A stretch of 64,000 nt of DNA from Naegleria gruberi (lineage: Eukaryota). The notes under the pieces were generated by a model. That model made no database searches, was not told where the DNA came from, and was given only the letters and a program-made list of their open reading frames with translations. Of this stretch, positions 4,533 to 40,037 are shown one piece after another (position 1 is the first letter of the stretch; each line of letters opens with the position of its first letter). Made by a program: the position numbers and the translations under genes. The stretch lies in NCBI GenBank assembly GCA_000004985.1, contig GG738849.1; one strand, given 5' to 3'.

Positions 4533-6383
4533 ATGCAAAGAATCACAGAAAGAACTAACTTTATCACCCGAGACATTGATGTAGTCGGAGATGTTGATGG
4601 TATGGTTCGTTTACTCCGAACAAGTGATGCACAAATGTTTTGTGGATATGAAGATTTTCCATCATGTTTTGATGAGGATTGTTTGGGTGCTTTGGAAAAA
4701 ATTTCCCTCCGAATGAAACTCTGTATGCAAGATAGATTAAATGGAGTGAGAGGAAGTGTTGTTATGAGTGGTTGTGGAACAAGTGGTAGAATTGCCTATT
4801 TTTGTTCAAAGAATTATAATTATTGTTTTAGAAAAGTATTTTCTGATAGGATTGATAATGATGAATGCTTTCAATTTATTATTGCTGGTGGAGTGAATGC
4901 TCTTGTTTCACCACAGGAAGCTGCTGAGGATAAACCAGATATTGGAGCAAGAGATTTGGTAAATGTCATTTCGAATACTAAAACTGAGAGAGGATTATTT
5001 ATTGGTATTACTTGTGGATTTTCTGCTGGTTATGTAGCTGGTCAAGTGATGCAATTGAGTGAGGATAAGAGTCTTGGTTTTGATTCTGTTTTATTTGGGT
5101 TTAATCCAAAGGAGTTGGCTAGGGATAGTCCAATTGAAGGATGGAGGGATGGAAATATTTCTTTCAAGGACGTAATTGAAAATGTGGAAAAGAACCAATC
5201 GAGAGAGGATGAATTTTTCTTTTTGAATCCAATTGTTGGACCAGAATCTATCACGGGTTCTACAAGAATGAAGGGTGGAAGTGCAACCAAATTTCTGCTT
5301 GATGTTGCCTTCTCTTCAGCCATTATGAGTATTCTGGATGAAAAGAAGAAGATTAGAGACAATATCATTCAAGTACTCTCTGGTTTTGAGCATACTGTGA
5401 GAAGTACATATGATTTTTCTAGTAATACCTTTTCAACAAATAGTCTCAAATCCATTACTCCAACCATTGAAATGGCAGCAAATAGTTTAAAGAATGGTAA
5501 CCTAGATGAAAGAAACGAGGATCAAATGGGCCATATTTATTACATTGGTGCTGAAAATGCTGGAATTTTGGGATTTATTGATTCTTCAGAGTGTGTACCA
5601 ACTTATGGTGCTCATCCTAATGATGTTAGAGGATTTATCAAAAAGGGATGGAACGATGTCTTTACCCATCACAATCAAGATATCAATAGTGATTTTGAAC
5701 AAAAGGGATCAAGTTTTGGCATTTCCTATGATTTCTTCAAACAAAATATTTTACATACAGTCAATTCTAGGGATTCGGTCTTCTTTTTGGCAATTGAACA
5801 ATGTATAGATGAAGAAACTCTTGCTGACATGAAGGAAATCCTAAATACGGTCAAGGAAAGAGGGGCCTCTGTCTGCTGGATTCTTGTAACCACAAAAGGT
5901 AATAATTCATTGTACCAGACCGTATCTGAATTGGGATCCCCAATATTGCACCATGCGCTTGACTCGCTTGGTCCAGTACCTTTCTTATATGGTTATGCAG
6001 AGCTTAGTATGAAACTTTTTTTGAATGCCATTACAACTGGTGCTCACGTATTGAAGGGTATGACATTTGGAAATAGAATGATCAATCTCAAAGTTAGTAA
6101 TAACAAACTATTTTATAGGGCTATTAATATTGTCAGTTCGATAATGAATGTAACTGAAGAGCTTGCAGAGAAATGTGTATTGAGAGCCATCTACAATGAT
6201 TCAACTCCAGAAAGTAACCTCGTCTCACTTCACATTAGTCATGCTATCAAGATGAATAAGGTAGTTCCTGTTGCCCTCTTGCTTGCTTCTTCAGGTGGTA
6301 CCTTGACTGTGGAACAAGCTAGAGAAATGTTAGCCAAAGACCCGGTGGTTAGGCAAGTAATTCTAAAGGAAAAGAAGAATTAA
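4533..6383 (+). CDS. GCKR: Glucokinase regulatory protein-like (GCKR/MurQ family, tandem SIS domains)
   Basis: 616-aa single-exon ORF. Motifs match GCKR: GCGTSGRIAYF, FNPKELARDSPIEGW, GPESITGSTRMKGGSATKFLLD, SNNKLFYRAI, and the C-terminal VPVALLLASSGGTLTVEQAREMLA. Confidence 0.8.
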   Translation: MQRITERTNFITRDIDVVGDVDGMVRLLRTSDAQMFCGYEDFPSCFDEDCLGALEKISLRMKLCMQDRLNGVRGSVVMSGCGTSGRIAYFCSKNYNYCFRKVFSDRIDNDECFQFIIAGGVNALVSPQEAAEDKPDIGARDLVNVISNTKTERGLFIGITCGFSAGYVAGQVMQLSEDKSLGFDSVLFGFNPKELARDSPIEGWRDGNISFKDVIENVEKNQSREDEFFFLNPIVGPESITGSTRMKGGSATKFLLDVAFSSAIMSILDEKKKIRDNIIQVLSGFEHTVRSTYDFSSNTFSTNSLKSITPTIEMAANSLKNGNLDERNEDQMGHIYYIGAENAGILGFIDSSECVPTYGAHPNDVRGFIKKGWNDVFTHHNQDINSDFEQKGSSFGISYDFFKQNILHTVNSRDSVFFLAIEQCIDEETLADMKEILNTVKERGASVCWILVTTKGNNSLYQTVSELGSPILHHALDSLGPVPFLYGYAELSMKLFLNAITTGAHVLKGMTFGNRMINLKVSNNKLFYRAINIVSSIMNVTEELAEKCVLRAIYNDSTPESNLVSLHISHAIKMNKVVPVALLLASSGGTLTVEQAREMLAKDPVVRQVILKEKKN

Positions 6384-9300
6384 TTGTCATCTGCAAGTGA
6401 AGTAGTAGAAATTAAAGAAACATCACTATCATCTTCTTGATCTACATTTTGGAAAATCTCTGAAATACTCATTTGTTGTCTCTTGTATTTTTCTCCAAGT
6501 GTATGTAGAGATCTTTCAAAATCAAGTCTCAATTTCTGCTCAACTTCAGAGAACTTATCGAGTGCTTCCTCTTCCAAGGTTGCTAATTTGGAGAAAGCTA
6601 CCTTTTGGTTATTGAGTTGTAGATCTTTGAGGAGGGTCAACTCTCCTTTCAACTTAACAATCTTGCCACGTACTTCAGGTAGTAATGAAGTCAAAGATTG
6701 AATATTGCGCTTCAATTGAAGATTTTCTTTCTCAATCTTTTCAATAAGTGATTTGTCGCTACTATTTCTATCAGTTTTTATCTTGACTTGACTTCTCAAA
6801 TCTTCAATCATGAGTTCATAGTAGTGGGCCTTGCTTTGAGTTTCATCTAGTTCTCTTCTTAAGCTTTGGTTTGAAGTATTTAACTCTGACACTCTTGACA
6901 TGGTATAATCTGAAGGAAGAGAGGAAGCATTCAATTTTCTCAACTCTTGTTCTCCTTGTTCGTAATCTTTGAGCATTTCATCCCTCTCTTTTTGGAGCAT
7001 ATTCAAGTTCTTTGTCAATATGATCATTTCCTTTTCTTGTTGTTTCAAATTTTCTTTCAAGGATTTAATCTCCTCATTACGTTGTTCAACTTGTTGTCTG
7101 AGCTTATCATTTTCTGCTTCCTTTTCTCCCAAAAAGTTATTGTTTTGTTTTGATAGTCTGTGGAGTTTGAGTTTCAAGTCTTCAATTTCTTGATTTCTCT
7201 CTGATAACAACTCCTCCAATTCGGATACATGGGTTGTTTTGTCCTTCTCATATCTTGATCTAAGCTCATTAACTTGTAAGGAGTGTAAGTCTCGTAAATC
7301 GGCTATCTTGGATTCTGCTGTTGATTCAACTTCTTTCAAGTTTTTAGCAAAATCTCCCTTCAAAGTCTCCATTTCTTTTAACAGCTTGTCACACCTGCCC
7401 TTCAATGATTCGTTCAAAACCTCAAGAGATTCAATTTGTTTTTTCAAATTTTCAATATTTTGAATATAGGAGATGTTCTTCTCCTTGGATGTCTCAATTT
7501 CTTGAGTGAGTGATTCATTCTTCTTCTTCAAAGAATCACAACTAATGTTGAGAGAATCTTTGATTTGTTGGAGATTTCCATTCTGTTCCTTGAGTGATTG
7601 ATTAAGTTTCTCTATAGAATCAATAGTACGAGTTTGATGTTCAATATCTTTCTTGAGCGAATCATTGGTTTGTTTGAGAGTTTCATTTGATTGGGTTGCA
7701 AAGTCAAGATTCGTTTTCAATTCGCCATTGTTTTTCTTCAAATTTTCAATATTCTCCTTCAGGTCTTCAATACTATTCTTTAGCGATTCATTTGTTTGTT
7801 TGAGGGTTTCTCCCATATGTCTTTGCTTTTCTCCTTCCAATTTAGCAATCTCTTTAGTGTGCTCTCTGACTTCTTCCAATTCTTTTTGAACCAGTCTTGT
7901 TTCAGCCTCCTTCTTTTCAATTTGTCTCTTGGATTCCAACTGAGAAAGTTTCAACTCATCAATAAATTGATCCTTTTCGAACATAATCTTCTTTTGCTCC
8001 TTAATTGTTGCCTTGTATGTTGAGATGTCCAGTTCTTGTTCTTCAACTTGTCTTTGGAGTTCTGAAATAATTTTCTGCTTGTCATTAATGGCTTTTTCAA
8101 CATCCCTAACCCGTGATTCTGTATCAGTTGAAGTATTTTTGATCATTTCCAATTCTCTCTCCACAGCTCTCTTTGATCTTTCTAGAGTTGAGAGGTTTTC
8201 CATACATCTTTCAATTTCTTCCTCCTTCTCCTTCAATCTTTCTTGCCATTCTGTAAGTTGTAAGGAGAATGTTGAAGTATCTTTTTCTTTCTTTCCCTTT
8301 ACATTCTCTAACACAAGTTCTAATTCTTCAATTCTTGAAATAGTGTTATGGTTTTCAGATGTCAACCTTTCTATTTGAGATTTAAGTTGAGTAATTAATG
8401 AGGATTTGGATTCATCTTCTTCCTTCAATTCCTCAATTTCTCTGAGCAATTTAGTGCATTTAATTCCTAAATCTCTATGCTCTTTTGACAATTCCTCGTA
8501 TTCTTGTTGTTTTTCTTCAACTTCTTTCTTAAATTGTTTAAGCTTGTCATTTCTGTCTCTATTTTCTTGCTCCAAGCTCTCAACATTATTTCCCTTTGAT
8601 TCAATTATTTCCTTATACTTTTCAATAACAGATTGCTTTTCTTGGATCACTTTGGATAAACTTTCAGACTCTTGTTGAGCCTTTCTTACAGATTCTTTAA
8701 AATTTTCTTTGATTTCTTCCACTTCAGCAGCAAGAATTTCCTTCTCTTTTTGATACAATTTTTGGCTAGAAGAAGTTTCCAACTTGACCTTGTGGAGTTG
8801 TAACAGTTCTTGAGAGAGCAAGTCATTATTGGCCTGTGTTGTCTTTACCTTTTCTCTCAAGTTTGAATTCAACTTGGCTAATTCATCGCACATATCAACT
8901 ATTGCTTTAAATTTCAAAGATTGTGAGCTTGGTGATAATGTTCCAATCTTTTGCTTGAATAAAGAACTCTTTTCCAAATAGGTGCTATCGTGAATTGATA
9001 ACTCTATTTCGTGTAGGACTTTCTTGCTCAAATCAAGCTCCTTGGTCAGGGATTGGTTCATATTAATAGTGTTTCCTAGATTTTCCTCTAATTTTCTCTC
9101 TCTTTCTATCGATTCCTTTAACAATTGCTTCAACTTCTCCACGTCAGCACTTTTGATTCTGAAAAGAGCAGCCTCTTCCTTAGATTCCATAATCTCTTTT
9201 TCCCTTGCATCGTGAGTTTCTTTCAATCGCTGAATTTGAGCTCCCAGTTGTGTAATATGATTCTTAAGATCATCAATTTCTTTTTGATATTCTCCAGACA

Positions 9301-10265
9301 TTTTTTTTCTAATTCTACTTCTTTCCTTTTCAATAATTTTCTCAATCATCTTTTGAGTAATTTCGGTATCTTCTTCCTGATTCTTGGTCATTTGCTCAAT
9401 TGCTTTTTGAAGTCTTACTATATCCTCTTCTGCCGAAAAGAGTGTCTTTGATACTCTATCCTTTTCTTTTGATACATTCTCTAGTTCAGATTCTTTTTGT
9501 TCCAGCTCTCTCTTTGCAAAATCTCTTTCGCTTTCTAGAATTTTACTTTTTCTTTCGGCATCGATCTTGTCTGTAATATGTTTTTCTATTTGTGAATTCT
9601 TATCTGAAACTATTTTATCGAGTTTGGATTCTAAGTAATTCAAAGTTTCTAAAAAGTTCTTTTGATCAGTCGCAGAGTTTCCATAAGAGCCTTGTTTTAA
9701 AACAGTCAAATATCTTTTGATTGTATACAAGGTATAGTCTTCGGAAACCAAAGGTTCTTCTGATATGAAAGTTAGAATTCTACTCTAATGAAATAATATA
9801 TTACTTACCCTCCTTTGGTGATAACAGCAAAGGCGATTGATGACTTGCAATGCTCCTTGAAGCAGTACTTTGGAGATCTTTCAATTCGCGAGTTAGACCC
9901 TCAATTTCCTTCTTTTGTTGTTTGATTTTCTTTTTGAGTTTGTCTTCATCCTTAGAATTCGAACCACTACTACCACTGGATTTTGTTGAACTCTCCAATG
10001 AAGAGGTTAATGTATTTAATTTTGATTTTAATTTTGAAAGTCGTTCGCTATTATAATTGCTGTATTTAGAGTCTATAAAAGAAACAACTTTTGATGCAGG
10101 ATTGTGTTCCATTACCTTAACATCCTCAATTACACCTTGGTCCGTTACTCTAACACTTGTTGAGGCCACCTTCTTTCCACCATGATAAAAGTGATGGTGT
10201 TCGTGGGTGACTTGGTGAGGGTTTTCGCCCATTTTTTTATTTTTATTTAAAATTTTAAGCGGCAT
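6380..10265 (-). CDS. Long coiled-coil protein (~1,280 aa), 2 exons
   Basis: ORF 9801..10265 (N-terminus MPLKILNK..., Ser-rich) is joined to the 1123-aa ORF 6380..9751 by a 49-nt phase-1 intron at 9760..9808 (GTAAGTAATAT...TCAG on the minus strand). The ORF-track start of the large ORF is a TTG. The body is a near-continuous heptad-like E/K/L/Q-rich coiled coil with no motor or other domain visible. Confidence 0.6.
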
Positions 10266-10377: not shown

Positions 10378-12877
10378 CTACAAGTAATATTGTTTCTTGT
10401 TGAGATTTTTGTGAGGACTTTTAGAAATGTTCGATTGACCATGTAAAAATGCTACCTTGTGAGCTAATATACAAGGTACAGGAACACTCGAAATTCCCAA
10501 ACGATTATAATACAAGTGACACAATTGGTACGATATATTCTGATAGAATACCTTATTAAATCCACTCCCATTTTCCAAAACCTTATACCTTGTTGGAGTT
10601 GCTGTTCCCTGAAACGAATCAACATGATGAGATTGAAGAAAGAATGACATTTCGTTTGGATCTGATGTCAGAATATCACCATCTAGAACTGTTCCTGGTT
10701 TCAAATTACCAAAATTGTTTCCATTTAGCCCAGCATATATTCTATTATTGATTCGTTTAAGTACAAGAATGAAATTGAGTGGAATAGAGTTGTATTCTTT
10801 GCAAACTTGTTGGATGGCTAATATCTCCTGATTGTAAATGTGATCTTCTTGCCCTGAACCTACACCATCTCTATAGAAAATAATATGTGTTGGAGAAGTT
10901 TTGTTCTCATTCATGAAATTCTCAATTGCATTCCTCATTAGATTTTTGATATTTTCAACCAACTCAACTCCTGGCTTCTGGACTTGGATTTGAGAATAGT
11001 ATGCGCATACCTTTGAATCGTAGGATGATACGAAACCAACGAGAGAGGATTTACTTCGATGGTAAACTTCACCTGAATGATTAACATCCATTCCGACAAT
11101 CATGGTATGTGGTTTCATTGGAATTGATGTCATCCAAGGAATTCCTCCAAGTTTAGCATTCATTTCAATTGTGATATTCTTCAAAATAGATGATTTTTTT
11201 TCAGAGATAGCAATGTTCCTCTCAGTAATGCATTGGCTAGGAATTCCCATATCTACAATGGTTTTTTCTTTCAAGGTATGGTATTCGGTACTTGTTTTGT
11301 TTTTAGTTATCATGAGAATGAATGAGATTGGGTAAGAATTTCTAATAGTATCAGTGAGATCTTTTTTTGAAACATGAGGAACATATTGTTGAAAGACATA
11401 GTTCATATTGGATGTTTCTAAATTCATTTGAGAACAAAACTGTTGCAACTTGTTGCAAAAGTCAACCAAATCTTTTGATTTTGTACCTTGATGAAGAACC
11501 AATACGCGTTCAAGAGATTTGCATTCGAACATGTTACTATTATTTTCAATTTTGAACATTCCTCTTTCTTTTTCAATTTTAACTTTTCCTCCAATTTTAA
11601 TGGAACAATCTTCAAGTGATTCCGTTTGCACTTGAATCATTTTTGGGACAATAGATATACCCTACTTATCCAGCTCTAATTTGAACTCTGAATGTTCCAA
11701 ACATTCGCGTTGATTGTTTAAAGTTTCTCTAATTCTGTCATTTGGTGGTTTTTTAGTGACAGAGGCAATTTTCTGCATTGTGGTAAAATTACTTCTCATA
11801 TCCTGACTTATTCCTGTCAATAGACACAACGAAGGAATATAGTATTCAACCTTTCCATTCCTCTTGTTAATATGTTTAAGTAAGGGTTGTTTCAAATCAA
11901 CGTCTTCACCATATTGTGTATTGTAATATTCTGCGAATGTAATTTCCTTTCCTTGAAAATTGAATGTTGACACAGGACTCATATCAAATTCAACACTTTC
12001 AATATAAATAGTTTTCTTTCTGTAAGTCAAGTAAACAATAGAATTTCCAAATTCTCTCTTGATTTTCGTTTGGGCAGAACGTTCTCCAAACTGTTCAATA
12101 ATCTTTTTCATTTGGCTTAAAACAGTATCTGTTCTCATAGTTTTATAAATTGGCTCAACTAGGAGAGCAAGGCCTTTAGAGGTGGTACAGGTTGAGCTTA
12201 GAGTTCCTCCCAATATTTGAAGCCCACAATCATGAATAGTTGTTTTGGTCTCTTCATTGTAAAAGTTTCTTCCAATTCTTGTTAGATTCAACTTGGCTTG
12301 AGCGTTCTTAAGGACAGAGTTGACGAATTGTACAAAGTCCTTTCCAGAATTTGAAACAGTAATGGTTGTTGCCAGCGTGATTGAAACAGTGTACACAATA
12401 TTTCCAATAGAACACGTCTTTTCTAAGTGTTTCTTTTGAGGTGGAAGAATTGAGTTGAGAGAGTATAAAATTGACCCACTCTGTAAGAAGTCAATTAGAA
12501 AGTCACTTAAAGCCTGCTTTACAATCCTATTAGCAAGGTATTTGTTTTCAATTTGCGGACTAATGTTAACATGGTACTGATAAATTGAAGTGTGCTTTCA
12601 ATTCAATTGGGAACATGTTGATTACATCCTTTCCCTTTCCCAAATTAAAATAATCAACAACTGGAATTTGGGACAAGGGTTGGCTAGGTGAATTTGAGGA
12701 GAATTGATTTGTTTTCTTATGATGTTGGTTGTGTGGCTTCTTGTCAGAGTTATAGGCTTTGTACTTGGTTCCTTGTGATAACATTTTTTCTTGTTGTGTT
12801 TTCTTCCATTTTGCAATTCCCAACCCAAAAATAACAATGTTGGGAAGTCTGGAAGATATGTTGAGTTGGGAAAGCAA
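10378..12877 (-). CDS. AGO: Argonaute/Piwi-family protein (N, PAZ, MID, PIWI), reading frame interrupted twice
   Basis: ORF 10378..11640 contains MID plus PIWI (LGGIPW, IVGMDVNH, IIFYRDGVGSGQ, PVPCILAHKVAF, i.e. an RDG/H catalytic signature). ORF 11662..12396 and its upstream open frame to ~12560 contain L1/PAZ (LCLLTGISQDMRSNF, VTKKPPNDRIRETL) and the N-domain motif SIYQYHVNISPQ. ORF 12566..12877 gives the extreme N-terminus (GKGKDVINMFPIELKAH). The pieces are co-linear in Argonaute order but separated by (i) a +1 frameshift at an A-run near 12590 and (ii) a single in-frame TAG at 11662-11664, with the frame otherwise continuous across it. The start is probably the ATG near 12784. Confidence 0.75.
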
Positions 12878-12922: not shown

Positions 12923-14756
12923 TTATTTGAAAACTTGTGATATCACACCAAGTCCCTTTGTTGTTCCTTCACGGAAGATTAATCGTTCACCAACTCTGAG
13001 ATATTCAGGTCTGAACAGGAATCTAAATTTGACTTTAGCCTTTTCACCTGTTCTTAGAGATTCATTATCGTTAATCTTTACAAGTTTAGCAGATTGTCTA
13101 ATACAATTACAATGTATAACTGGTTGATAATTTTCCTTAATAGTGGTACTATGATACAATACGAGAATATCAGCTTCAAATTCCCAAACAGCTTTTGGTT
13201 CTTCTTCGTCTACAATAACCATTCCCTTTCTAATTCCGGAACGTCTTTCTTTTTTCAATGCAAAACTTGCTTGTTGACCAGCATGAACTCTTTTCACGTT
13301 GACTCTCTTACAATGAATACTCTTAATTACGACACTTCTGAAATGTCCGTTGCTATCTGGTCCTAGCATTAGTTTGTCATTTACAGAAATACTTCCACTT
13401 TGTACAATACCAGAAACAACTGTACCAACACCACTGACAAAGAAGGTTTGATCAATGACATATTGTGCTGGTTTGTCAATTAATGATTCCCAATCTTTTC
13501 TAATTGGTAACAGATTGAGGAACTTATGCAAGAGTTGCAGATTTTCACCAGTTACTGAACTCATCAAGAACATTGGACAAATTCTGTCACTTGCTAAATT
13601 TTTGGCACAAGTCAGAACATCGTCATCATTCTTGACATGATATGGTAACTTTCTAACTCCAGGAAGTTTAAGAATTTTGTGAATGGTTTCAATAGTTTGT
13701 TTGAGAATATTTTCTGGACAAATGTCAACCTTAGTAATGCAGAAAAACATTGGAATCTTGAGAGCCAGACACAATCCGATATGTTCCTTGGTCATCTATA
13801 GTCATTGTTAGCATTCAAAAATAATTTTAAAAACTTACCTTTGTGACACCCATGTTACTACCAACACATAGGAGAGCATAATCTGGTCCTGTTGTCATAC
13901 CAAAAACGGTTGTTTTCAAGTACTTTTCGTGTCCAGCAAGGTCAATAAATGTACAAACTTTTGATGACTTATCAATAATATCTTTCCATGAAGGAGACTG
14001 TAAGTTTGAGTAATTTACAGTGTCACCTTTAGAATCAAATCCCATAATTTGATGACTGATACTAGAAGTTCTTCCTGTTGTCAATTCGTGCTTGTGGACA
14101 AAAACATTAGAACGAGCTAATCCTCTACCATTGTCAAGTTGTCCATGTGTCAGCACACCAATAAGTGTTGATTTTCCAGAGTCAACATTACCACAAACTG
14201 CAATATTTACATTCAAATATTCTTCTTCTCCGAATCTTCTTACAAGCACTTCAGCAACCCATCTCTTTTCTTCTGGATTGGTTATAGTAGCAGCTTGCTT
14301 CTTATTCTTTTTACCTTCGGAGGATACTTGCTTTTCACAAATAACTGAAACAGTGGCTTGTAACTCGATGGCCATCTTTTCAATATTTCCTAGTGTTTCT
14401 CTGTATTCTTCCTCAACTAATCCCAATGGATAGCCATCATCGTTGATTCCTATTTCATAGATGGCTTCACCTTGTCCTTCAGATAAACGATAGGACATTT
14501 GGGTAACAAGATGTTTAAATCTATCTTCTGACAATCCTACTAACTTCCATTTGTATTCTACATTTCCATCATCACTTTCCTTGGATAATATTTCATTAGA
14601 TGCCAAAAGTGATTTTTCTTCAATTAATTCCTTATCTTGCTCTAAATTGATAACTTGTTTATGTTCTGTACCAGAAGAAGAAGAAGCTTTTGTAGTAGTA
14701 GTGGCACCATTAACACTCTCTGTTGTTGATGGTATGGGATCTTTAGTCTCTGACAT
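12923..14756 (-). CDS. GTPBP1: GTPBP1/GTPBP2-like translational GTPase, 2 exons
   Basis: ORFs 13827..14756 and 12923..13795 join through a 43-nt phase-0 intron at 13796..13838 (GTAAGTTTTT...CTATAG on the minus strand). The G domain is NVDSGKSTLIGVLTHGQLDNGRG...DLAGHEKY, followed by EF-Tu-like beta-barrel domains. Confidence 0.8.
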
Positions 14757-15209
14757 TTTTCTTTAATATATATTGTGTGATGATGAATAATACAATGTAT
14801 TATTATTTTACTTAATCAAAGTGGTGGTGGGAACTGGTGAGTTAAAAATAAAATTAAACTTGAAGTTTTCTTTGGGTGTGATTTGGAAAAATTTGTATGA
14901 AACCTTTTCGCTGCTACTCAAAAATCGCTAAATGGTCTGTTGCGAATAACAAGTTTGAAAAGTTTTTTTTAAAGTTTTATTTTGGTGGTGCATTTTGAAA
15001 ATGCTTTCATCACATTAAATTGAAGCAAAAGAAGAACATGCTGAGAGAGGTGCACGATTGAAATGGCACAGATGAGTGATACCCATGTGTAGTCATAGGC
15101 TGATGGTGGAGGTGGATTACATTTGCTTGTTGCACTACCCATGCAATTTTCTTGTCGTATTATAATTGTGATGATTGGTGATGGGTTGACTGAGTAATAG
15201 GGCGTTATA

Positions 15210-21349: not shown

Positions 21350-22939
21350 TTATTCCATATTGTTGTGTTGATGACGATGGGTGTAGTTTGTACTTGAAGA
21401 CTTTTTAGCAGTGAATTTATATTGAGCTGCAAATACATCTGATGGAATATCCTTTGCTCCTTCACGATATAAAACTTCTACAGTCCTTGATGTTGGACTG
21501 AATGGGAATGATTCAAGTAATGAAAATGCTTTCCAATCTTGATTAAATCGTAAATATGTTGCCAACATGGTATTATAAAGACGTTCTCTAAGGGATTCAT
21601 CTTGAATCTTGTCACGGAATCGGAAAAATACTCTCTCAGCTTCATTGAGATTACCAGTTATTGTGTATGCATAAATGATTTGATAGGCAGAATTTGAACC
21701 TCCTGTTTTGTCTATTATTATTCTTTCCAATTCTTTCAGTTCATTAAGCTTTTTTGAATCTGCAAGAGCAATCAATAAAATTCTATAAGAATTGATTGGA
21801 ATTTCATATCCATCCTTTAACAATTCAACATAGTAGTGATAGACCTTATCTAATTGGTTCTTGTTAAAGTAATAATAGAATAAGAATGAATAAATGGAAA
21901 CTGAAGGTTTAACCTTATCCTTTCTCATATGACTGAATAAAAATGAAATTAAATCATTTCTATCTTGATTACAGGCAGCAGAAATTAAAATTGTATATGT
22001 TGAGGTCATTCTCTTAATACCCATATCAGGCATTTCATGGAAGAAACGAAGTGCCAAATCAATATTATTGTTTTTAACGTGATGATTAAGAATTGGAGCA
22101 AAGATATCGGCTGTCAAGTGCTTTGAACCTTGCAATTTGACAGTAATTTCGTGAGCTTTTTCCATCATACCTACATTGACATAGGCATAAACAAGGGAAG
22201 ACCAGTGTCTACCATTTGGATTTTGTAATCTAGAAAAGAGAGCTTCAACTTTTTCAATATCCTTCATTCTTGCATAAAGTGTAATTCCTGTATGGATAAT
22301 ATTTTCGTTATTATTATCCTTAACATTTTCAAAAATCTCTAATGCTTCCTTGATACATCCTCTTTCTTCATAAAACTTCATCAAAACTCCATAAACTGAT
22401 GATCTTGGCAATTGTTTGATTGATTTAATATTGTCAAATAAATGTTCTTCTGAAACTCTACGATTAAAGATACATAAATCTGATAATTGTTTAAATACTT
22501 CCGATTGTAATTCAGGTGAAGCATCTTCTTGTCCATTCTTCTTGACATATTCTAAAATCTCGTTTAATACTTTAACGTTTGGAGTAAATGTATTGGTGTG
22601 TTTAATGGCAGAATCAAATATAGCTGTTTTTAATTCATTAATAGATGATTCTTTAGAAACTTCCTCTAGAAGAAAATCATCAACAAAAACATCTCCGATA
22701 GTAGGAGCTGGTGTTGTTGGTAAAGAAGTTTCTGTAGTACTATTTGTTATTGCTTCAACTTCCTCACTAATTGGTGTGGTGCTATTGTTCATTCCTCTCA
22801 TAATAGTGTGATATTTGTTATTAGTAGATGAAACAAAGCAACTTTGAGTGCTTTTGGAAAAATTCATGAATTTATATTGTGGTAGAGCACCTCTCATCAC
22901 AACTTTGGAGACAATTCTTGGTAATTGTGACGCTCTCAT
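21350..22939 (-). CDS. Pentatricopeptide/TPR-like helical-repeat protein, probably mitochondrial
   Basis: 529-aa ORF with a basic N-terminus (MRASQLPRIVSKVVMRG) and repeated ~35-aa helical-hairpin units (e.g. VYGVLMKFYEERGCIKEALEIFENV, TYTILISAACNQDRNDLISFLFSHM). Confidence 0.55.
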   Translation of the reverse strand: MRASQLPRIVSKVVMRGALPQYKFMNFSKSTQSCFVSSTNNKYHTIMRGMNNSTTPISEEVEAITNSTTETSLPTTPAPTIGDVFVDDFLLEEVSKESSINELKTAIFDSAIKHTNTFTPNVKVLNEILEYVKKNGQEDASPELQSEVFKQLSDLCIFNRRVSEEHLFDNIKSIKQLPRSSVYGVLMKFYEERGCIKEALEIFENVKDNNNENIIHTGITLYARMKDIEKVEALFSRLQNPNGRHWSSLVYAYVNVGMMEKAHEITVKLQGSKHLTADIFAPILNHHVKNNNIDLALRFFHEMPDMGIKRMTSTYTILISAACNQDRNDLISFLFSHMRKDKVKPSVSIYSFLFYYYFNKNQLDKVYHYYVELLKDGYEIPINSYRILLIALADSKKLNELKELERIIIDKTGGSNSAYQIIYAYTITGNLNEAERVFFRFRDKIQDESLRERLYNTMLATYLRFNQDWKAFSLLESFPFSPTSRTVEVLYREGAKDIPSDVFAAQYKFTAKKSSSTNYTHRHQHNNME

Positions 22940-23097: not shown

Positions 23098-23727
23098 TTA
23101 GTAGTCTTGGGATGATTCGAGTAATTCTCTTTTCATTCTATTAATGTCCTCAATAGAGAACCCTTCATTCTCATCCTCCCTCTCTTCTTCCAATGACGAG
23201 TTTGGTGAATGAGCTTGAATCCTTGAATTTTCTCGTTTCTTATTTTGTGAAGCTCTCTTCACTTTGCTTGTCTTTTTCCAGTAAGCATTGTAAATGTCAT
23301 TCAATAATCCCCAAATTGTGTCATAATCTCCTGAAATAACTTCTTTCGTGGACCACAAGAAACGAAGCTCAATTGTCTTGTTATCCCTTAATACTGAAAA
23401 CACCCGTTCCAAATTATTGTGCATGGCCGCAGTAGTTTGAGGAAGTCTGCTAATTCCTTTCATTTTTCCCTCTCCTTCAATTCGAGCAACTATTTCTGCA
23501 AATTTTAAGCCAGTCCTCAAATCATTTTCGCATTGAATGTTTGAATTGAATTCGATACCTAAATCGTATTCAATCCACCGGGCAATATGTTTAAATTTCT
23601 CCATAGAGTTCTCGTCTAAAATTTGTGGCTCATTATTCTTTTGTACAAATGATTTTCTCTCTGCTCTCATTGGCTGCTCTACTTGCTGATGAGTTACCTC
23701 AGGTTCCTCCTCTTCCTCTCGATCCAC
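23098..23727 (-). CDS. Calponin-homology (CH, DUF1042/CLAMP-like) domain protein
   Basis: 209 aa: acidic N-terminus, then a CH-like core (KFKHIARWIEYDLGIEF, LRTGLKFAEIVARIEG, ELRFLWSTKEVISGDYDTIWGLLNDIYNAYW). It overlaps the next upstream ORF in another frame, so it may be the C-terminal part of one gene. Confidence 0.5.
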   Translation of the reverse strand: MDREEEEEPEVTHQQVEQPMRAERKSFVQKNNEPQILDENSMEKFKHIARWIEYDLGIEFNSNIQCENDLRTGLKFAEIVARIEGEGKMKGISRLPQTTAAMHNNLERVFSVLRDNKTIELRFLWSTKEVISGDYDTIWGLLNDIYNAYWKKTSKVKRASQNKKRENSRIQAHSPNSSLEEEREDENEGFSIEDINRMKRELLESSQDY

Positions 23728-24800
23728 ATTTGGTTTCCTTGTAGGAATGAAAATTCGTTTGCTTTGGGTATGTCCACTTGTTTTTGAACTGGTTTTGGTT
23801 GCGAAGTAATTGCAAGATCTTCAGTGTTGGTTTGGGAATTGTAGAGTGGAGCAGAGACTGGTGCACTTGGTTGATTGGAAGAAACATTCTTGATATTTAG
23901 TTTTGGAATGGAAGTAGTTGGTTTAAAAGGCAAGTTCGATTTTCTTGGTTTGTTTGCTGATACTTGTCGATTCTTCCAGTCCAAGTCCAGATTTCTTCTA
24001 TTATCCAATTCCCCCAGGAATCTTGTCCTTGTAGATTCTTCATCTGCAATAAGAGATTCCTTTTTAATATACACTGATCTCATTACTGGACCAATAGAGG
24101 GCCTTCTATCAATATCCATATCCCCATTTGAATCGGATTCCAATACATTAAGGGGTTGAGATTTTTTCATATCATTCATTTGATTTCTCCTTGATGTATT
24201 ATTATTAATTGGTGGATCGTCTTCCCACGACACCTTAGGTTTTGTTGACTGTTTTTCTTGTTCCTGTTTCTTGCTTGTTGTATCCAATATTTCGTCCTGC
24301 TGTGGTTGATGATTTGATTTTGATGAACTAAAACTTTGACGTTGTTTCTCCAATTCTACTTGATTTTCGAAGTGTTCTTTGAGGAATCCCACTGATATAA
24401 CAGTTCTAATCGGAGGTGTACACTGAGGTCTCCTCCTTTCTCTTCCTATTAATTTGTGGTAAAATCCAGAGAAGGTAGTATTTAGGGAAGAATTGGTAGT
24501 ATTGATAGTTGATTGTACATTGTGAAACCTTGAAGAAGAAATTACTTCTTCCTCTTCATCCTCTGAGGATTCTGTATTTTCTGTATTAGGTTGTGCATTT
24601 GTTGATTTATCAACTTGTTGAAATGAAGGAAGGGAAGATGGATCACGATAAATAGAGGGATTTGCAAACTTTGATTTGAGGGCTGTTATTCCGTTCTGTG
24701 TCGATGAATTATTGCCAAGCACAATTATTTTGCCCTTAGAAAAACTCGTGCTCGAACCAAGATGAGCAGTTTTCATATTCTTTTTTGTGATGATTTTCAA
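23694..24800 (-). CDS. Low-complexity Ser/Asn/Gln-rich ORF, possibly the N-terminal part of the CH-domain gene
   Basis: 368-aa ORF with no domain. Its 3' end overlaps the CH-domain ORF by 34 nt in a different frame (A-rich stretch near 23700), so one more homopolymer frameshift or an unrecognised intron could join them. Confidence 0.35.
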   Translation of the reverse strand: MKIITKKNMKTAHLGSSTSFSKGKIIVLGNNSSTQNGITALKSKFANPSIYRDPSSLPSFQQVDKSTNAQPNTENTESSEDEEEEVISSSRFHNVQSTINTTNSSLNTTFSGFYHKLIGRERRRPQCTPPIRTVISVGFLKEHFENQVELEKQRQSFSSSKSNHQPQQDEILDTTSKKQEQEKQSTKPKVSWEDDPPINNNTSRRNQMNDMKKSQPLNVLESDSNGDMDIDRRPSIGPVMRSVYIKKESLIADEESTRTRFLGELDNRRNLDLDWKNRQVSANKPRKSNLPFKPTTSIPKLNIKNVSSNQPSAPVSAPLYNSQTNTEDLAITSQPKPVQKQVDIPKANEFSFLQGNQMWIERKRRNLR

Positions 24801-25154
24801 AATTACGAGTAACGTTCAAATGTTGTGGCTTCTCTGTTTAGTAAGTTCTTAATGGGAAAATTCACTGCTGTGAAGATGGTGCTATTTGTCTGGTACCCAA
24901 ATCAAATTTAAGCAAACAGGTCATGAATTCCTCATATTTATCTATTGAAAAATGTTCCATTGGAAATAATTCTTCTTTTATTGAGGTTTTTTAATAGTTA
25001 TGTACACAACAATTTTAGGCGCCAAATAATTAAAAAACATGGGATTGCATTAAAATCGTAACTTAATCAATTAAAAAAAACATCAACACACTTTTCCGCA
25101 CCAACTGATTAGAGTGTTGTATTTTTGCTGTTGCTGTTGTATTTAAATTCGGAA

Positions 25155-30877: not shown

Positions 30878-32824
30878 GTGCCGAAGAACATATCAAAATA
30901 TTGGAATCAATACCGTATTCAAATCATCTTAGCCACAATTTTATCATTACAAAGAAGCTCCATTGATGCAGAATTGTATGTGAAGGATCCATCATCAATG
31001 ATTTATGTATCAAAAGATGATGATTTGAAAAAACTTTCACCTCTGTCCATCCAATTAATTTTGGGAACCATAAGGCTTGTGAGTTGTTGGAATATATGAA
31101 GAATGTAAAAATGGATGCAATAATATTCCTAGTATTGATAACATTTTGCACAGAAAAAAACTACTCATGGAAGGAATTGATATGCATAAAAAGATCATGG
31201 AATATAAGATAGAATCCTTAAAGGTTGACAATGCACTGATGAACTTTTATACGAAATGTGAAATGCCAGATGAAGCATTAGAAATTTTTGACCACCTCAA
31301 AAGTGAAAAGAAACCAATTGATATTATAACATGGACTTGTACTATTCAAGCTTACATGTCCAAAAATCAAGTTTCAAAAGCTATGTCCTTACTCTCAGAA
31401 ATTCAATTATATCAAACCCCTGACCCAATATTGTTTTCAACAGTATTACATATTTGTGCTGAAAATAGGTTGATTGAAGAAGGACAGGAAATTCATCAAA
31501 GAATTAACAAATTGAAAAAGCAGAATATCATTTTAGACAATGCACTGATGAATTTTTATACGAAATGTGGAATGCCAGAAAAAGCATTAGAAATATTTGA
31601 AAAACTCAAAAGTGAAAAGAAGCCAATGGAGGTCATGATATGGAACTGTGCAATTCAAGCTCTTGGTGAACAAAAGAAGGCCATTGAGGCATTTTCTCTT
31701 TTCAAAGAAATGGAAAGTAATAGCATAATTCCAACTGAGATTACATTTAATATCTTGTTAAATATTTGTGCTGAAAATAAGTTGATTGAGGAAAGGACAG
31801 GAAATTCATCAAAGAATCAAAAAATTGAAAAAGCAGAATATCATTTTAGACAATGCATTGATGAATTTTTATACTAAATGTAAAATGCCAGATGAAGCAT
31901 TAGAAATATTTGAACAACTCAAAAATGAAAAGAAACCAATTGATATTATAACATGGACTTGTGCTATTCAAGCTCTTGTACAAAAGAAATGCATTGATGA
32001 GGCATTGGATTTACTTGAAACAAATGGCATCCAAGTCGACGAAGTGATTTATGTTGTACTTTTGACTGCATGTGCAAACGATGTGTCAATAGAAAAAGGT
32101 GAGCATGTTATCAAACTAATAGAATCGTCTGGAATGCTCACAGACCATATTATGTACGGAGCTGTTGTAAACTTTTATGCCAAAATTGGAAATATTCAAA
32201 AAGCTCTGTATTTTTTCAATGAATATGATGGCCCTCCTGAAAGTCTTTAATGATGTGGAAAGAGCTGAGAGAGCATTTAACATTTTATTAGAGCTCGATA
32301 AGGAGCAAGCAACTCATTATGTTCTAATGTCGCATGTGTACCTTCAAAGTGATCAACCAGAAAAAGCAAAAGAAATAAGGGAATTGATGAAAAAAAATGA
32401 GGTACAAAAGACACCTGGCATTACTACAATTGAAATTAATGGCAAAACTTATCATTTTTACTACAATGACGAAAGCCACCCCAAAAAGGAGGAAATATTT
32501 CAAGAATTGGACAAGTTATGCCAAGAAATGGAGCTCGCAGGCTATGTTCCAGACACGAGATGGGTTACTAAAACGGATGCCAATGATGAAGAAACAAAGA
32601 AACATTTACTTTCAAGGCATTCTGAAAAAATTGCATTATCATTTGCTTTCATTTCCCTTCCACCTGGATCACCAATAACAATACGAAATAATCTGAGAAT
32701 GTGTGGAGATTGTCACACAGCAACAAAGTTTATATCAAAAATCAGGAAGTGTGAAATTACGGTTAGAGATGCCAGTAGATATCATCACTTTAAGGATGGA
32801 AAGTGCAGCTGTGGAGACTTTTAA
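30878..32824 (+). CDS. PPR-E-DYW protein (plant-type DYW deaminase-domain PPR), frame disrupted by at least 3 single-nucleotide indels
   Basis: ORF 32177..32824 has an E-motif plus a complete DYW domain (HSEKIALSFAFI, NLRMCGDCHTATKFISKIRKCEITVRDASRYHHFKDGKCSCGDF). ORFs 31146..31877 and 31786..32250 hold PPR repeats (DNALMNFYTKCxMPxxALEIFxxLKxEKKP). They overlap in different frames. The shifts sit at A7 (near 31155), gaggaaagg (near 31790) and T6 (near 32208). An upstream ORF 30878..31099 and a third frame carry further repeat-like sequence. Confidence 0.7.
31215..31985 (+). repeat. Internal tandem nucleotide repeat (3 copies, period ~315-320 nt) inside the PPR-DYW gene
   Basis: gacaatgca[c/t]tgatgaa[c/t]ttttatac[g/t]aaatgt[g/a][a/g]aatgccaga... 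recurs at ~31215, ~31535 and ~31849. Copies 1 and 3 are nearly identical over >120 nt. Confidence 0.8.
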
Positions 32825-39971: not shown

Positions 39972-40037
39972 CGCCCCACGTGGGGCTCGAGCCATTGGAT
40001 TAAAAGTCCAACGCTCTACCGACTGAGCTAGCGGGGC
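39972..40037 (-). tRNA. tRNA-Lys(UUU)-like sequence with non-canonical 3' half (possible pseudo-tRNA)
   Basis: The minus strand reads GCCCCGC-TA-GCTCAGTCGGTAGAGC-G-TTGGA-CTTTTAA-TCCAA-TGG... This gives a perfect acceptor 5' arm, D-arm and anticodon arm with anticodon UUU. There is no GTTCGANTCC T-arm. The 3' portion CTCGAGCCCCACGTGGGGCG is ~7 nt too short and GC-rich palindromic. GTGGGGC could still pair with the 5' acceptor via one G-U. Confidence 0.4.

What the first reader, a model, noticed from the sequence alone, without database searches (positions are those of the whole stretch)
10378..12877. Argonaute/Piwi gene with an in-frame TAG between PAZ/L2 and MID plus an N-terminal frameshift
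All Argonaute domains are present, co-linear and catalytically intact (RDG...H). The PAZ-L2 frame and the MID-PIWI frame are the same frame, separated by exactly one TAG codon (11662-11664, context CTG GAT AAG TAG GGT ATA). No plausible GT-AG intron of length 3n removes it. The simplest model I found (donor GTAGGG, acceptor ~100 nt downstream) would delete 26 residues. Possibilities are a point error, a recent pseudogenising nonsense mutation, a split PAZ-only plus MID-PIWI pair, or stop-codon readthrough. A second disruption, an extra A near 12590, separates the N-domain motifs GKGKDVINMFPIELKAH and SIYQYHVNISPQ, which align well to human AGO2 once corrected.
Basis: seen in the sequence. Interest (0 to 1): 0.55.

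Follow-up and report, generated by a model that had tools for sequence, protein, structure and literature searches.

The report
Broken Piwi gene copy in Naegleria
This is a spare, divergent copy of a Piwi-type small-RNA silencing gene in the amoeba Naegleria gruberi, otherwise intact but broken by one premature stop and one extra base; it is most likely a very young pseudogene or a draft-assembly error, so it is ordinary.

Summary
On the minus strand, 12784..10378 holds an intronless gene of about 800 codons for a complete Argonaute (N, PAZ, MID, PIWI). It is interrupted by an in-frame TAG at 11664..11662 and by one surplus base within 12598..12589.

What the tools added:
- The window is Naegleria gruberi NEG-M. 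The public annotation (XP_002681829.1, 342 aa) covers only the PIWI end of the gene.
- The protein belongs to the PIWI clade, not the AGO clade.
- The TAG replaces a conserved Trp (TGG to TAG, one G-to-A change). The flanking residues align without gaps, so an intron or a designed split is excluded.
- TAG is also the gene's true terminator, so the codon is not reassigned.
- Catalytic and 5'-phosphate-pocket residues are intact. Off-frames carry 44-71 stops against one internal stop in frame, so any decay is very recent.
- N. gruberi has a second, intact Piwi paralogue (898 aa, 36% identical) with orthologues in N. lovaniensis and Willaertia. The window gene has no close orthologue.
- A DYW-type PPR gene 20 kb away carries two similar one-base insertions, while the other domain-bearing genes checked are intact.

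Verdict: a young pseudogene or null allele of a redundant paralogue (about 0.55), or local errors in the Sanger draft (about 0.35). I found no support for recoding. Interest is low.

The parts
10378..12784 (-). Whole Piwi-clade Argonaute gene, from ATG 12784..12782 to terminator TAG 10380..10378. It is intronless, with 800 sense codons after repair.
   Evidence: repaired CDS; collinear end-to-end alignment with Siwi and MIWI; no GTAAGT...TAAC...YAG intron on this strand inside the gene.
12589..12598 (-). Frameshift zone AAAGCACACT, where one surplus base separates ...NMFPIEL(K) from (S)IYQYHVNISPQ.
   Evidence: Searches give the ORF limits: TGA 12600..12598 and TAA 12568..12566. Searches show that the repaired segment has the same length as NYFPVKLPKWVVYQY (Willaertia) and NYFPVKAPEGPFYLY (N. 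gruberi paralogue).
12566..12568 (-). TAA that ends the N-terminal reading frame after the frameshift.
12355..12622 (-). N domain (weak ArgoN match, residues 55-143 of the repaired protein). It spans the frameshift.
   Evidence: PF16486, E = 0.0012, below the curated cut-off; alignment with Siwi starts at residue 55.
11752..12114 (-). PAZ domain (residues 224-344).
   Evidence: PF02170, E = 1.7e-22.
11662..11664 (-). Premature in-frame TAG in linker L2, at the position of a conserved Trp codon (TGG).
   Evidence: X aligns with W of Siwi ELATWSLKL and of MIWI ELRDWGLSF. W in 10 of 11 homologues. W in paralogue P0161.
11320..11631 (-). MID region (about residues 385-488), including Y501, K505, Q517 and K544 of the 5'-phosphate pocket just downstream. 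The boundaries are inferred from the alignment.
   Evidence: invariant columns Y501, K505, Q517, K544.
10432..11319 (-). PIWI domain (residues 489-784) with an intact DEDH tetrad: D566, E607, D639, H775.
   Evidence: PF02171, E = 7.8e-70. D566 and D639 invariant, E607 and H775 nearly invariant, and all four present here.
10378..11406 (-). Extent of the public gene model XP_002681829.1 / EFC49085.1 (NAEGRDRAFT_63051, 342 aa, 'predicted protein'), a truncated model covering only the PIWI domain.
   Evidence: P0003 is 100% identical to residues 79-420 of the 420-aa ORF.
10378..10380 (-). Genuine terminator TAG. The C-terminus ...KKQYYL aligns flush with the Piwi C-termini LYFL and LYYL.

Best explanation
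The locus is a divergent second copy of a PIWI-clade Argonaute gene of Naegleria gruberi NEG-M. It was kept under purifying selection until very recently and now carries two real inactivating mutations:
- a G-to-A transition that turned a conserved Trp codon (TGG) in linker L2 into TAG;
- a one-base insertion in the N domain.

As sequenced, translation would stop after about 70 codons, so no functional Piwi protein is made from this allele. It is a very young pseudogene, or a null allele in a heterozygous clonal lab strain. Its loss is tolerated because the intact paralogue ('argonaute', 898 aa) covers the Piwi function.

Shown: the gene's identity and clade, the nature and position of both lesions, the absence of introns, the intact functional residues, and the existence of the intact paralogue. 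Inferred: that the lesions are in the DNA of the organism rather than only in the assembly, and that redundancy explains their tolerance.
For: - **Organism and annotation.** The window is N. gruberi, and the public model is truncated to 342 aa.
- **Clade.** PIWI-clade identity and full collinearity across both lesions (Siwi 5.6e-91, MIWI 5.4e-87, against AGO at 1e-39 or weaker). The NJ tree separates Piwi from AGO with 100% support and places the gene with heterolobosean Piwis at 84%.
- **Nature of the TAG.** It aligns with a conserved Trp and the flanks align without gaps. G-to-A is the commonest spontaneous change in an AT-rich genome (established knowledge).
- **Recent constraint.** There are 800 open codons with one internal stop, against 44-71 stops in the other frames. 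All 41 invariant columns are kept, and there are only 4 private deviations at near-invariant columns, within the range of functional homologues (0-10).
- **Signs of dispensability.**
  - An intact paralogue, P0161, exists with orthologues in N. lovaniensis and Willaertia.
  - No orthologue of the window gene was found (best non-self hit 47%).
  - The gene sits on the longest branch of its group.
  - It lacks the RG-rich N-terminal tail of the paralogue.
  - It has E318S in the PELC motif and W761R in the YNW motif.
- **Lesions are clumped.** Four lesions fall in two genes, both from redundant families (Piwi and DYW-PPR), while about a dozen genes with full-length Pfam domains in the same 64 kb are intact. 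By my own rough calculation, uniformly scattered errors would give this 2+2 pattern with p of about 0.003.
Against: - No reads, cDNA or second assembly of N. gruberi could be reached, so the lesions are not independently confirmed.
- The assembly is an unfinished Sanger draft (PMC9928731, Table 1). Errors in low-coverage patches also cluster.
- Both frameshifts that could be characterised (Piwi, and the first one in the DYW-PPR gene) are single-base insertions, one shown to be and the other possibly next to a short A run. The third frameshift (second in the DYW-PPR gene) is a +1 shift of unresolved nature. Single-base overcalls fit base-calling errors slightly better than the natural indel spectrum, in which deletions dominate.
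- Apart from the lesions there is no detectable decay, which is also what an assembly error would look like.
Confidence: 0.55

Rival explanations
1. Draft-assembly artefact. The gene is intact and functional in the organism, and both lesions are base-calling or consensus errors in locally poor stretches of the roughly 8x Sanger whole-genome shotgun assembly. The two frameshifts in the DYW-PPR gene 20 kb away would be errors of the same kind.
For: - Apart from the two lesions, the ORF and every functional residue are intact.
- The assembly is Sanger-only and unfinished (PMC9928731, Table 1).
- A second otherwise intact gene in the same window has two +1 shifts. One is demonstrably an extra A, GAAGAAGGACAG against GAGGAAAGGACAG in its internal repeat.
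- At a consensus error rate near 1e-4, a few errors per 64 kb are expected (inference).
Against: - Four disabling errors confined to two genes, with none in about a dozen other domain-bearing genes, requires strongly clumped errors.
- The two Piwi lesions are about 930 nt apart, more than one bad read end.
- One lesion is a clean transition to a stop rather than an indel.
- Both affected genes belong to redundant families, which random errors would not prefer.
- There are no Ns or gaps in the window.
Confidence: 0.35
2. Truncated or split products are the functional output: a MID-PIWI protein initiated at ATG 11640 (420 aa), with or without a separate N-PAZ fragment. This would resemble a short Argonaute.
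For: - An ATG lies 21 nt after the TAG and opens a 420-aa ORF holding complete MID and PIWI domains.
- The public model is a PIWI-only protein.
Against: - The TAG replaces a conserved Trp, and the 7 codons between the TAG and the ATG still align with homologues. The break is therefore an accident inside a continuous coding sequence, not a gene boundary.
- There is no room for a promoter.
- Reinitiation after a long upstream ORF is inefficient in eukaryotes (established knowledge).
- The N-PAZ part is itself frameshifted.
- All relatives found are single-chain proteins.
Confidence: 0.04
3. Programmed recoding or RNA-level repair. This would be UAG readthrough or A-to-I editing of UAG to UGG (restoring Trp, as in the sexual-stage editing of filamentous fungi), together with a +1 ribosomal frameshift or base deletion at AAA-G. 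Expression of this Piwi copy would then be conditional.
For: - The stop is exactly the codon that A-to-I editing would convert back to the ancestral Trp.
- A tRNA-Lys could in principle re-pair from AAA to AAG in the +1 frame (sequence).
- The rest of the gene looks fully constrained.
- A second gene in the window shows +1 shifts.
Against: - There is no stimulatory RNA structure after the TAG (z = -0.82; 46 of 200 shuffles fold as well).
- The UAG-GGU-AUA context matches no known leaky motif (from memory).
- The 0-frame codon after AAA is an ordinary GCA, not a stop or a hungry codon.
- No homologue has a stop or a frameshift at either site.
- The same gene ends with TAG as a normal terminator.
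- No nuclear mRNA editing or programmed frameshifting is known in Heterolobosea (my knowledge).
- The only tRNA in the window is Lys(UUU)-like, not a suppressor.
Confidence: 0.03

Closest known systems
Animal PIWI-clade Argonautes (Bombyx Siwi 5GUH, mouse MIWI, Ephydatia Piwi-A, Drosophila Piwi)
   Same: - Same N-L1-PAZ-L2-MID-PIWI order, alignable from residue 55 to the last residue.
- DEDH tetrad, Y-K-Q-K 5'-phosphate pocket and C-terminal ...YYL end are all conserved.
   Different: - Only about 30% identical.
- No N-terminal RG/RGG repeats.
- From a heterolobosean amoeba.
- The reading frame is broken by a TAG and a frameshift.
N. gruberi 'argonaute' P0161 (898 aa), with its orthologues in N. 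lovaniensis (P0160) and Willaertia magna (P0005, KAL9646069.1)
   Same: - Same clade: heterolobosean Piwi group with 84% bootstrap.
- 36% identity over 764 aligned residues with few gaps.
- Trp at the TAG position.
   Different: - Those genes are uninterrupted, carry long RG-rich N-terminal tails and have orthologues across genera (52% between the two Naegleria species).
- The window gene is the long basal branch, has no orthologue above 47% identity, and is disrupted.
Young unitary or duplicated pseudogenes with few disabling lesions
   Same: A nonsense mutation plus a frameshift in an otherwise well-preserved ORF of a gene that has a functional paralogue.
   Different: Loss of constraint is not demonstrable (conserved residues are all kept), and the lesions are not confirmed in independent data.
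Restorative A-to-I editing of premature UAG codons in Fusarium and Neurospora sexual development (recalled from memory, not tested)
   Same: A premature UAG at a position where UGG (Trp) is ancestral.
   Different: No editing machinery of this kind is known in Naegleria, editing could not repair the frameshift, and no RNA data are available.

Membership tests
PIWI-clade eukaryotic Argonaute | N-L1-PAZ-L2-MID-PIWI domain order in one polypeptide | tested here: met
   (Piwi 7.8e-70, PAZ 1.7e-22, weak ArgoN and ArgoL1, collinear); single alignment of residues 55-801 to Siwi 155-899. This holds only after conceptual repair of the two lesions.
PIWI-clade eukaryotic Argonaute | Closer to PIWI than to AGO clade proteins | tested here: met
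   PIWI proteins score E = 5.6e-91 to 8e-73, human AGO1-4 score 1e-39 to 1e-31. Piwi group separated from the AGO outgroups with 100% bootstrap (NJ tree, 763 columns).
PIWI-clade eukaryotic Argonaute | Slicer tetrad DEDH in the PIWI domain | tested here: met
   D566 (GMDVNH), E607 (GVELVEN), D639 (YRDGVG) and H775 (AHKVAFL) are all present.
PIWI-clade eukaryotic Argonaute | MID pocket for the guide 5' phosphate (Y-K-Q-K) and a C-terminal carboxylate end | tested here: met
   invariant Y501, K505, Q517, K544. The C-terminus ...QYYL aligns flush with LYFL and LYYL.
PIWI-clade eukaryotic Argonaute | N-terminal RG/RGG (symmetric dimethyl-arginine, Tudor-binding) repeats | tested here: not met
   The N-terminus MLSQGTKYKAYNSDKKPHNQHH... 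has no RG repeats. The paralogue P0161, P0160 and Willaertia P0005 do have them. This is typical of the clade but not strictly defining.
PIWI-clade eukaryotic Argonaute | Uninterrupted reading frame giving a full-length protein | tested here: not met
   TAG at 11664..11662 and a +1 shift in 12598..12589.
PIWI-clade eukaryotic Argonaute | Binds 24-31 nt guide RNAs and silences transposons | not testable with these tools
   No small-RNA or biochemical data available.
Pseudogene | Disabling lesions relative to functional homologues | tested here: met
   Nonsense codon at a conserved Trp and a one-base insertion.
Pseudogene | Relaxed constraint (excess changes at conserved sites, dN/dS near 1) | tested here: inconclusive
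   All 41 invariant columns are kept, with 4 private deviations at near-invariant columns against 0-10 in homologues. No orthologue is available for dN/dS. The long branch in the tree is compatible with either reading.
Pseudogene | Lesions present in the organism's DNA (independent reads) | not testable with these tools
   No reads or second assembly could be reached.
Programmed stop-codon readthrough | Leaky stop context and/or stimulatory downstream RNA structure | tested here: not met
   The context is UAG GGU AUA. The fold of the 111 nt from the stop gives -17.1 kcal/mol, z = -0.82.
Programmed stop-codon readthrough | Stop conserved at the same position in relatives | tested here: not met
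   Relatives have Trp (Phe in one) at this column.
Programmed +1 ribosomal frameshift | Shift site with a slow 0-frame codon, conserved in relatives | tested here: not met
   AAA-GCA has no stop or evidently rare codon after it. All relatives read through in one frame.
Spliceosomal intron | GTAAGT donor, TAAC branch site and YAG acceptor, as in the window's real introns | tested here: not met
   Real introns of 38-104 nt were found elsewhere, and none on the minus strand in 10378..12784. Homologues align without a gap across both lesions.

The most novel reading that the evidence does not exclude
The lesions are real in the DNA but are repaired at the RNA or translation level. This would mean UAG-to-UGG (A-to-I) editing or readthrough, plus a +1 frameshift or base removal at AAA-G. 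Naegleria would then keep a conditionally expressed Piwi copy, and possibly other genes such as the nearby DYW-PPR gene, behind recoding switches. No such nuclear recoding system is known in Heterolobosea.
Probability: 0.03. Interest if true: 0.8.

Novelty: new member of a known kind. Interest (0 to 1): 0.18.

Why it matters
The value is mainly curatorial.
- The reference protein XP_002681829.1 / D2V2M6 ('predicted protein', 342 aa) is the tail of a full-length Piwi-clade gene. N. gruberi therefore encodes two Piwi-clade loci, one intact and one disrupted. Surveys of RNAi and Piwi gene content in Heterolobosea should count them that way.
- If the lesions are real, the locus is a dated example of a Piwi paralogue being lost in a long-cultured clonal amoeba.
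- If they are errors, the locus flags local quality problems in the only N. gruberi reference assembly. The DYW-PPR gene in the same window shows the same problem.

Neither outcome changes understanding of Argonaute biology.

Tried and rejected
- **Exact-protein look-ups.** I queried the 420-aa ORF, the GTP-binding neighbour, the 154-aa neighbour and the public 342-aa model to reach independent contigs. Nothing was on record.
- **First word-index homologue search.** Run with the repaired 801-aa protein, it returned only two distant hits and missed even the identical public model. The exhaustive representative search and later searches worked.
- **Metagenome scans.** I looked for close relatives by protein and for the exact DNA around the TAG. 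Both were empty.
- **Literature.**
  - No paper names NAEGRDRAFT_63051, D2V2M6 or XP_002681829.
  - The N. gruberi genome paper is not held.
  - The pangenome paper's supplements do not mention Piwi or Argonaute.
  - A 2026 review lists a single Argonaute for N. fowleri, but only as the best hit to human AGO.
- **Intron hypothesis: rejected.** The window's true introns are GTAAGT...TAAC...YAG of 38-104 nt, and none lies in the gene. GTAGGG at the TAG does not fit the donor pattern. Homologues align without a gap through both sites.
- **TAG reassignment: rejected.** The gene itself terminates with TAG at the conserved C-terminus, and most genes in the window end in TAA, TAG or TGA as normal.
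- **Amber suppressor tRNA in the window: rejected.** The only tRNA-like sequence has anticodon UUU.
- **Readthrough-stimulating structure: none found**.
Full report
**1. The observation**

- An ATG at 12784 opens a frame that reads MLSQGTKYKAYNSDKK...GKGKDVINMFPIELKAHFNLSVPC and stops at TAA 12568..12566.
- A second frame, offset by +1, opens after TGA 12600..12598. It reads KHTSIYQYHVNISPQ... and runs for 312 codons to TAG 11664..11662, in the context GAT AAG TAG GGT ATA.
- The same frame then continues for 428 codons to TAG 10380..10378.
- After one base is removed from 12598..12589, the CDS has 800 sense codons and a single internal stop. The other five frames of the same DNA carry 44-71 stops each.
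- The window has 33.6% G+C and no Ns.

**2. What the gene is**

Pfam finds Piwi (7.8e-70), PAZ (1.7e-22) and weak ArgoN and ArgoL1 matches in the canonical order.

Against solved structures, the best matches are all PIWI-clade proteins:
- Bombyx Siwi, 5.6e-91;
- mouse MIWI, 5.4e-87;
- sponge Piwi-A, 3.6e-81;
- Drosophila Piwi, 3.2e-75.

Human AGO1-4 reach only 1e-39 to 1e-31. The Siwi alignment is one continuous block from residue 55 to the last residue, crossing both lesions. It ends flush at the C-terminus (QYYL against LYFL). In a 12-sequence alignment the protein keeps all 41 invariant columns. These include the slicer residues D566 and D639 (with E607 and H775) and the 5'-phosphate pocket Y501, K505, Q517 and K544. 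The gene is a PIWI-clade Argonaute rather than an AGO2-like one.

**3. Source and public annotation**

An exhaustive search of 1.8 billion representative proteins found one protein 100% identical to residues 79-420 of the 420-aa MID-PIWI ORF. This is XP_002681829.1 / EFC49085.1 / D2V2M6, NAEGRDRAFT_63051, 'predicted protein [Naegleria gruberi]', 342 aa, on an 850-kb scaffold. The window is therefore N. gruberi NEG-M, whose only assembly is Sanger-based (PMC9928731, Table 1). The public model is a truncated piece covering only the PIWI domain. That is what a gene caller would produce if the TAG were already in that assembly. No paper in the library mentions this locus.

**4. Nature of the two lesions**

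The TAG:
- The X at the TAG position aligns with Trp in Siwi (ELATWSLKL) and MIWI (ELRDWGLSF).
- It also aligns with Trp in 10 of 11 homologues (Phe in the other) and in the N. gruberi paralogue (QLGLWGLEINDK).
- The residues on both sides align without a gap: ELDK*GISIVPKMIQVQ against SWNFEIQPKLVQVQ.
- The stop is therefore a single G-to-A change of TGG.
- This excludes an intron and a designed gene boundary, because the 21 nt between the TAG and the next ATG still encode homologous residues.

The frameshift:
- After repair, the segment NMFPIELKHTSIYQYHV has exactly the length of NYFPVKLPKWVVYQYDV (Willaertia) and NYFPVKAPEGPFYLYDV (N. gruberi paralogue).
- The lesion is therefore a one-base insertion.
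- It may be an A in the AAA run at 12598..12596, but any base of AAAGCACACT would do.

Introns:
- Real introns in the window have GTAAGT donors, a TAAC branch site and YAG acceptors, and are 38-104 nt long. Examples are 13838..13796, 9808..9760 and 50789..50826.
- None lies in the gene on this strand.

Stop-codon usage:
- TAG is not reassigned, because the gene itself ends with TAG at the conserved C-terminus.
- The only tRNA-like sequence in the window has anticodon UUU.
- The 111 nt from the TAG onward do not fold better than shuffled sequence (z = -0.82).

**5. Relatives**

- The closest named relative in the first list is a Willaertia magna protein of 858 aa, which is intact.
- Searching with it uncovered 'argonaute [Naegleria gruberi]' (P0161, 898 aa, on a different 381-kb scaffold) and its N. 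lovaniensis orthologue (P0160, 899 aa). The two are 52% identical to each other.
- The window gene is 36% identical to P0161 over 764 residues.
- In an NJ tree of 763 columns it is the longest and most basal branch of a group that holds the Willaertia and Naegleria proteins plus unnamed environmental sequences (84% bootstrap). The whole Piwi set is separated from the AGO outgroups at 100%.
- A search with the MID-PIWI ORF found no protein more than 47% identical other than the public model itself.

N. gruberi therefore has one intact, conserved Piwi with an RG-rich N-terminal tail, and this second, fast-evolving or old copy. The second copy has no RG tail and no detectable orthologue in the other sequenced Naegleria. 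It deviates privately at only four near-invariant columns, including E318S in PELC and W761R in YNW. That is within the range of functional homologues.

**6. Context in the window**

Most domain-bearing genes are intact in single ORFs, or are joined by canonical introns, and show end-to-end Pfam matches. They include:
- a GKRP-like protein;
- a GTPBP-like GTPase with a 43-nt intron;
- cyclophilin;
- copine;
- a B9 protein;
- ELP3;
- an M24 peptidase;
- a P450;
- Prp18.

The exception is a DYW-type PPR gene at 31083..32824 (+), which is spread over three frames. Its first shift is an extra A: GAGGAAAGGACAG against GAAGAAGGACAG in its own internal repeat. Its second shift is another +1 shift near 32215..32235. 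So four lesions fall in two genes, two per gene and less than 1 kb apart in each. Both genes belong to families with spare members. For the DYW family, 11 DYW proteins face two known editing sites (PMC4202320).

**7. Weighing the explanations**

Independent, uniformly scattered errors would rarely give a 2+2 pattern (my rough estimate is p of about 0.003). The lesions must therefore be clumped. Two processes clump them: accumulation in genes that are already dispensable, or low-coverage patches of a draft assembly.

For real mutations:
- Both affected genes are redundant family members.
- The Piwi copy is on a long branch, has no orthologue and lacks the RG tail.
- One lesion is a G-to-A transition.
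- The Piwi lesions are about 930 nt apart.

For artefacts:
- Both genes are otherwise pristine.
- The two frameshifts whose nature could be resolved are single-base insertions (the third is a +1 shift of unresolved kind).
- The assembly is an unfinished Sanger draft.

If the lesions are real, they are very recent. Stop-creating changes are 5.4% of point changes. With an assumed indel share of about 10%, two lesions in 2.4 kb correspond to roughly 0.5% neutral divergence (inference). That is of the order of allelic variation, so a null allele in a heterozygous clonal strain is possible.

My estimates are:
- real pseudogene or null allele, 0.55;
- assembly error, 0.35;
- functional truncated or split products, 0.04;
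- programmed recoding or RNA repair, 0.03.

**8. Comparison with what is known, and novelty**

The gene meets the structural definition of a PIWI-clade Argonaute except for the open reading frame and the RG-rich tail. It fails the tests for programmed readthrough, programmed frameshifting and introns. Disrupted paralogues and draft-assembly frameshifts are both commonplace.

What is new is modest. The locus is a full-length Piwi-clade gene hidden behind a truncated 'predicted protein' model. N. gruberi has two Piwi-clade loci. The lesion at the TAG is a Trp-to-stop change. Interest is low (0.18). The only exciting reading, RNA-level or translational repair, has no support beyond the coincidence that UAG is one edit away from the ancestral UGG.

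**9. What would settle it**

Read pile-ups or PCR across 11600..11720 and 12540..12640 in NEG-M and other N. gruberi strains would settle it, together with cDNA across both sites.

Noticed in passing
window 31083..32824 (+): A DYW-type PPR gene (PPR repeats, E, E+ and DYW deaminase domains, with HSE and CxDCH motifs intact) is spread over three reading frames. Shift 1 is an extra A at 31792..31794, shown by comparison with the gene's own internal repeat at about 31480. Shift 2 is another +1 shift near 32215..32235. The pattern matches the Piwi gene: an otherwise pristine ORF with two lesions less than 1 kb apart.
   Followed up: partly
window 39972..40037 (-): Rfam calls a tRNA here (43.8 bits) with anticodon loop CUUUUAA, so Lys(UUU). 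It has a shortened variable/T region, and ARAGORN does not call it. It is not an amber suppressor.
   Followed up: partly
window 6380..10265 (-): The 154-aa ORF just downstream of the Piwi gene and the 1123-aa coiled-coil ORF appear to be one gene, joined by a canonical 49-nt intron (9808..9760, GTAAGT...CTAAC...CAG).
   Followed up: no
window 12923..14762 (-): The upstream neighbour is a GTPBP1/EF-Tu-like GTPase split by a 43-nt intron (13838..13796). Introns in this window are very short (38-104 nt), with strict GTAAGT donors and a TAAC branch motif.
   Followed up: partly
window 23098..24815 (-): Two long ORFs in different frames overlap by 126 nt in a low-complexity stretch, with no Pfam match and no canonical intron at the junction. 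This could be a further frameshift or two genes.
   Followed up: no
window 21350..22939 (-): A second PPR-repeat gene (529 aa, intact, P-type by Pfam) lies 8 kb from the DYW-PPR gene.
   Followed up: no
P0161 (N. gruberi), P0160 (N. lovaniensis), P0005 (Willaertia magna); not in the window: Heterolobosean amoebae carry an intact, conserved Piwi-clade Argonaute with a long RG/RGG-rich N-terminal tail, the motif that binds Tudor proteins in animals. The N. gruberi protein is annotated only as 'argonaute'; the N. lovaniensis and Willaertia proteins are annotated as hypothetical proteins.
   Followed up: partly
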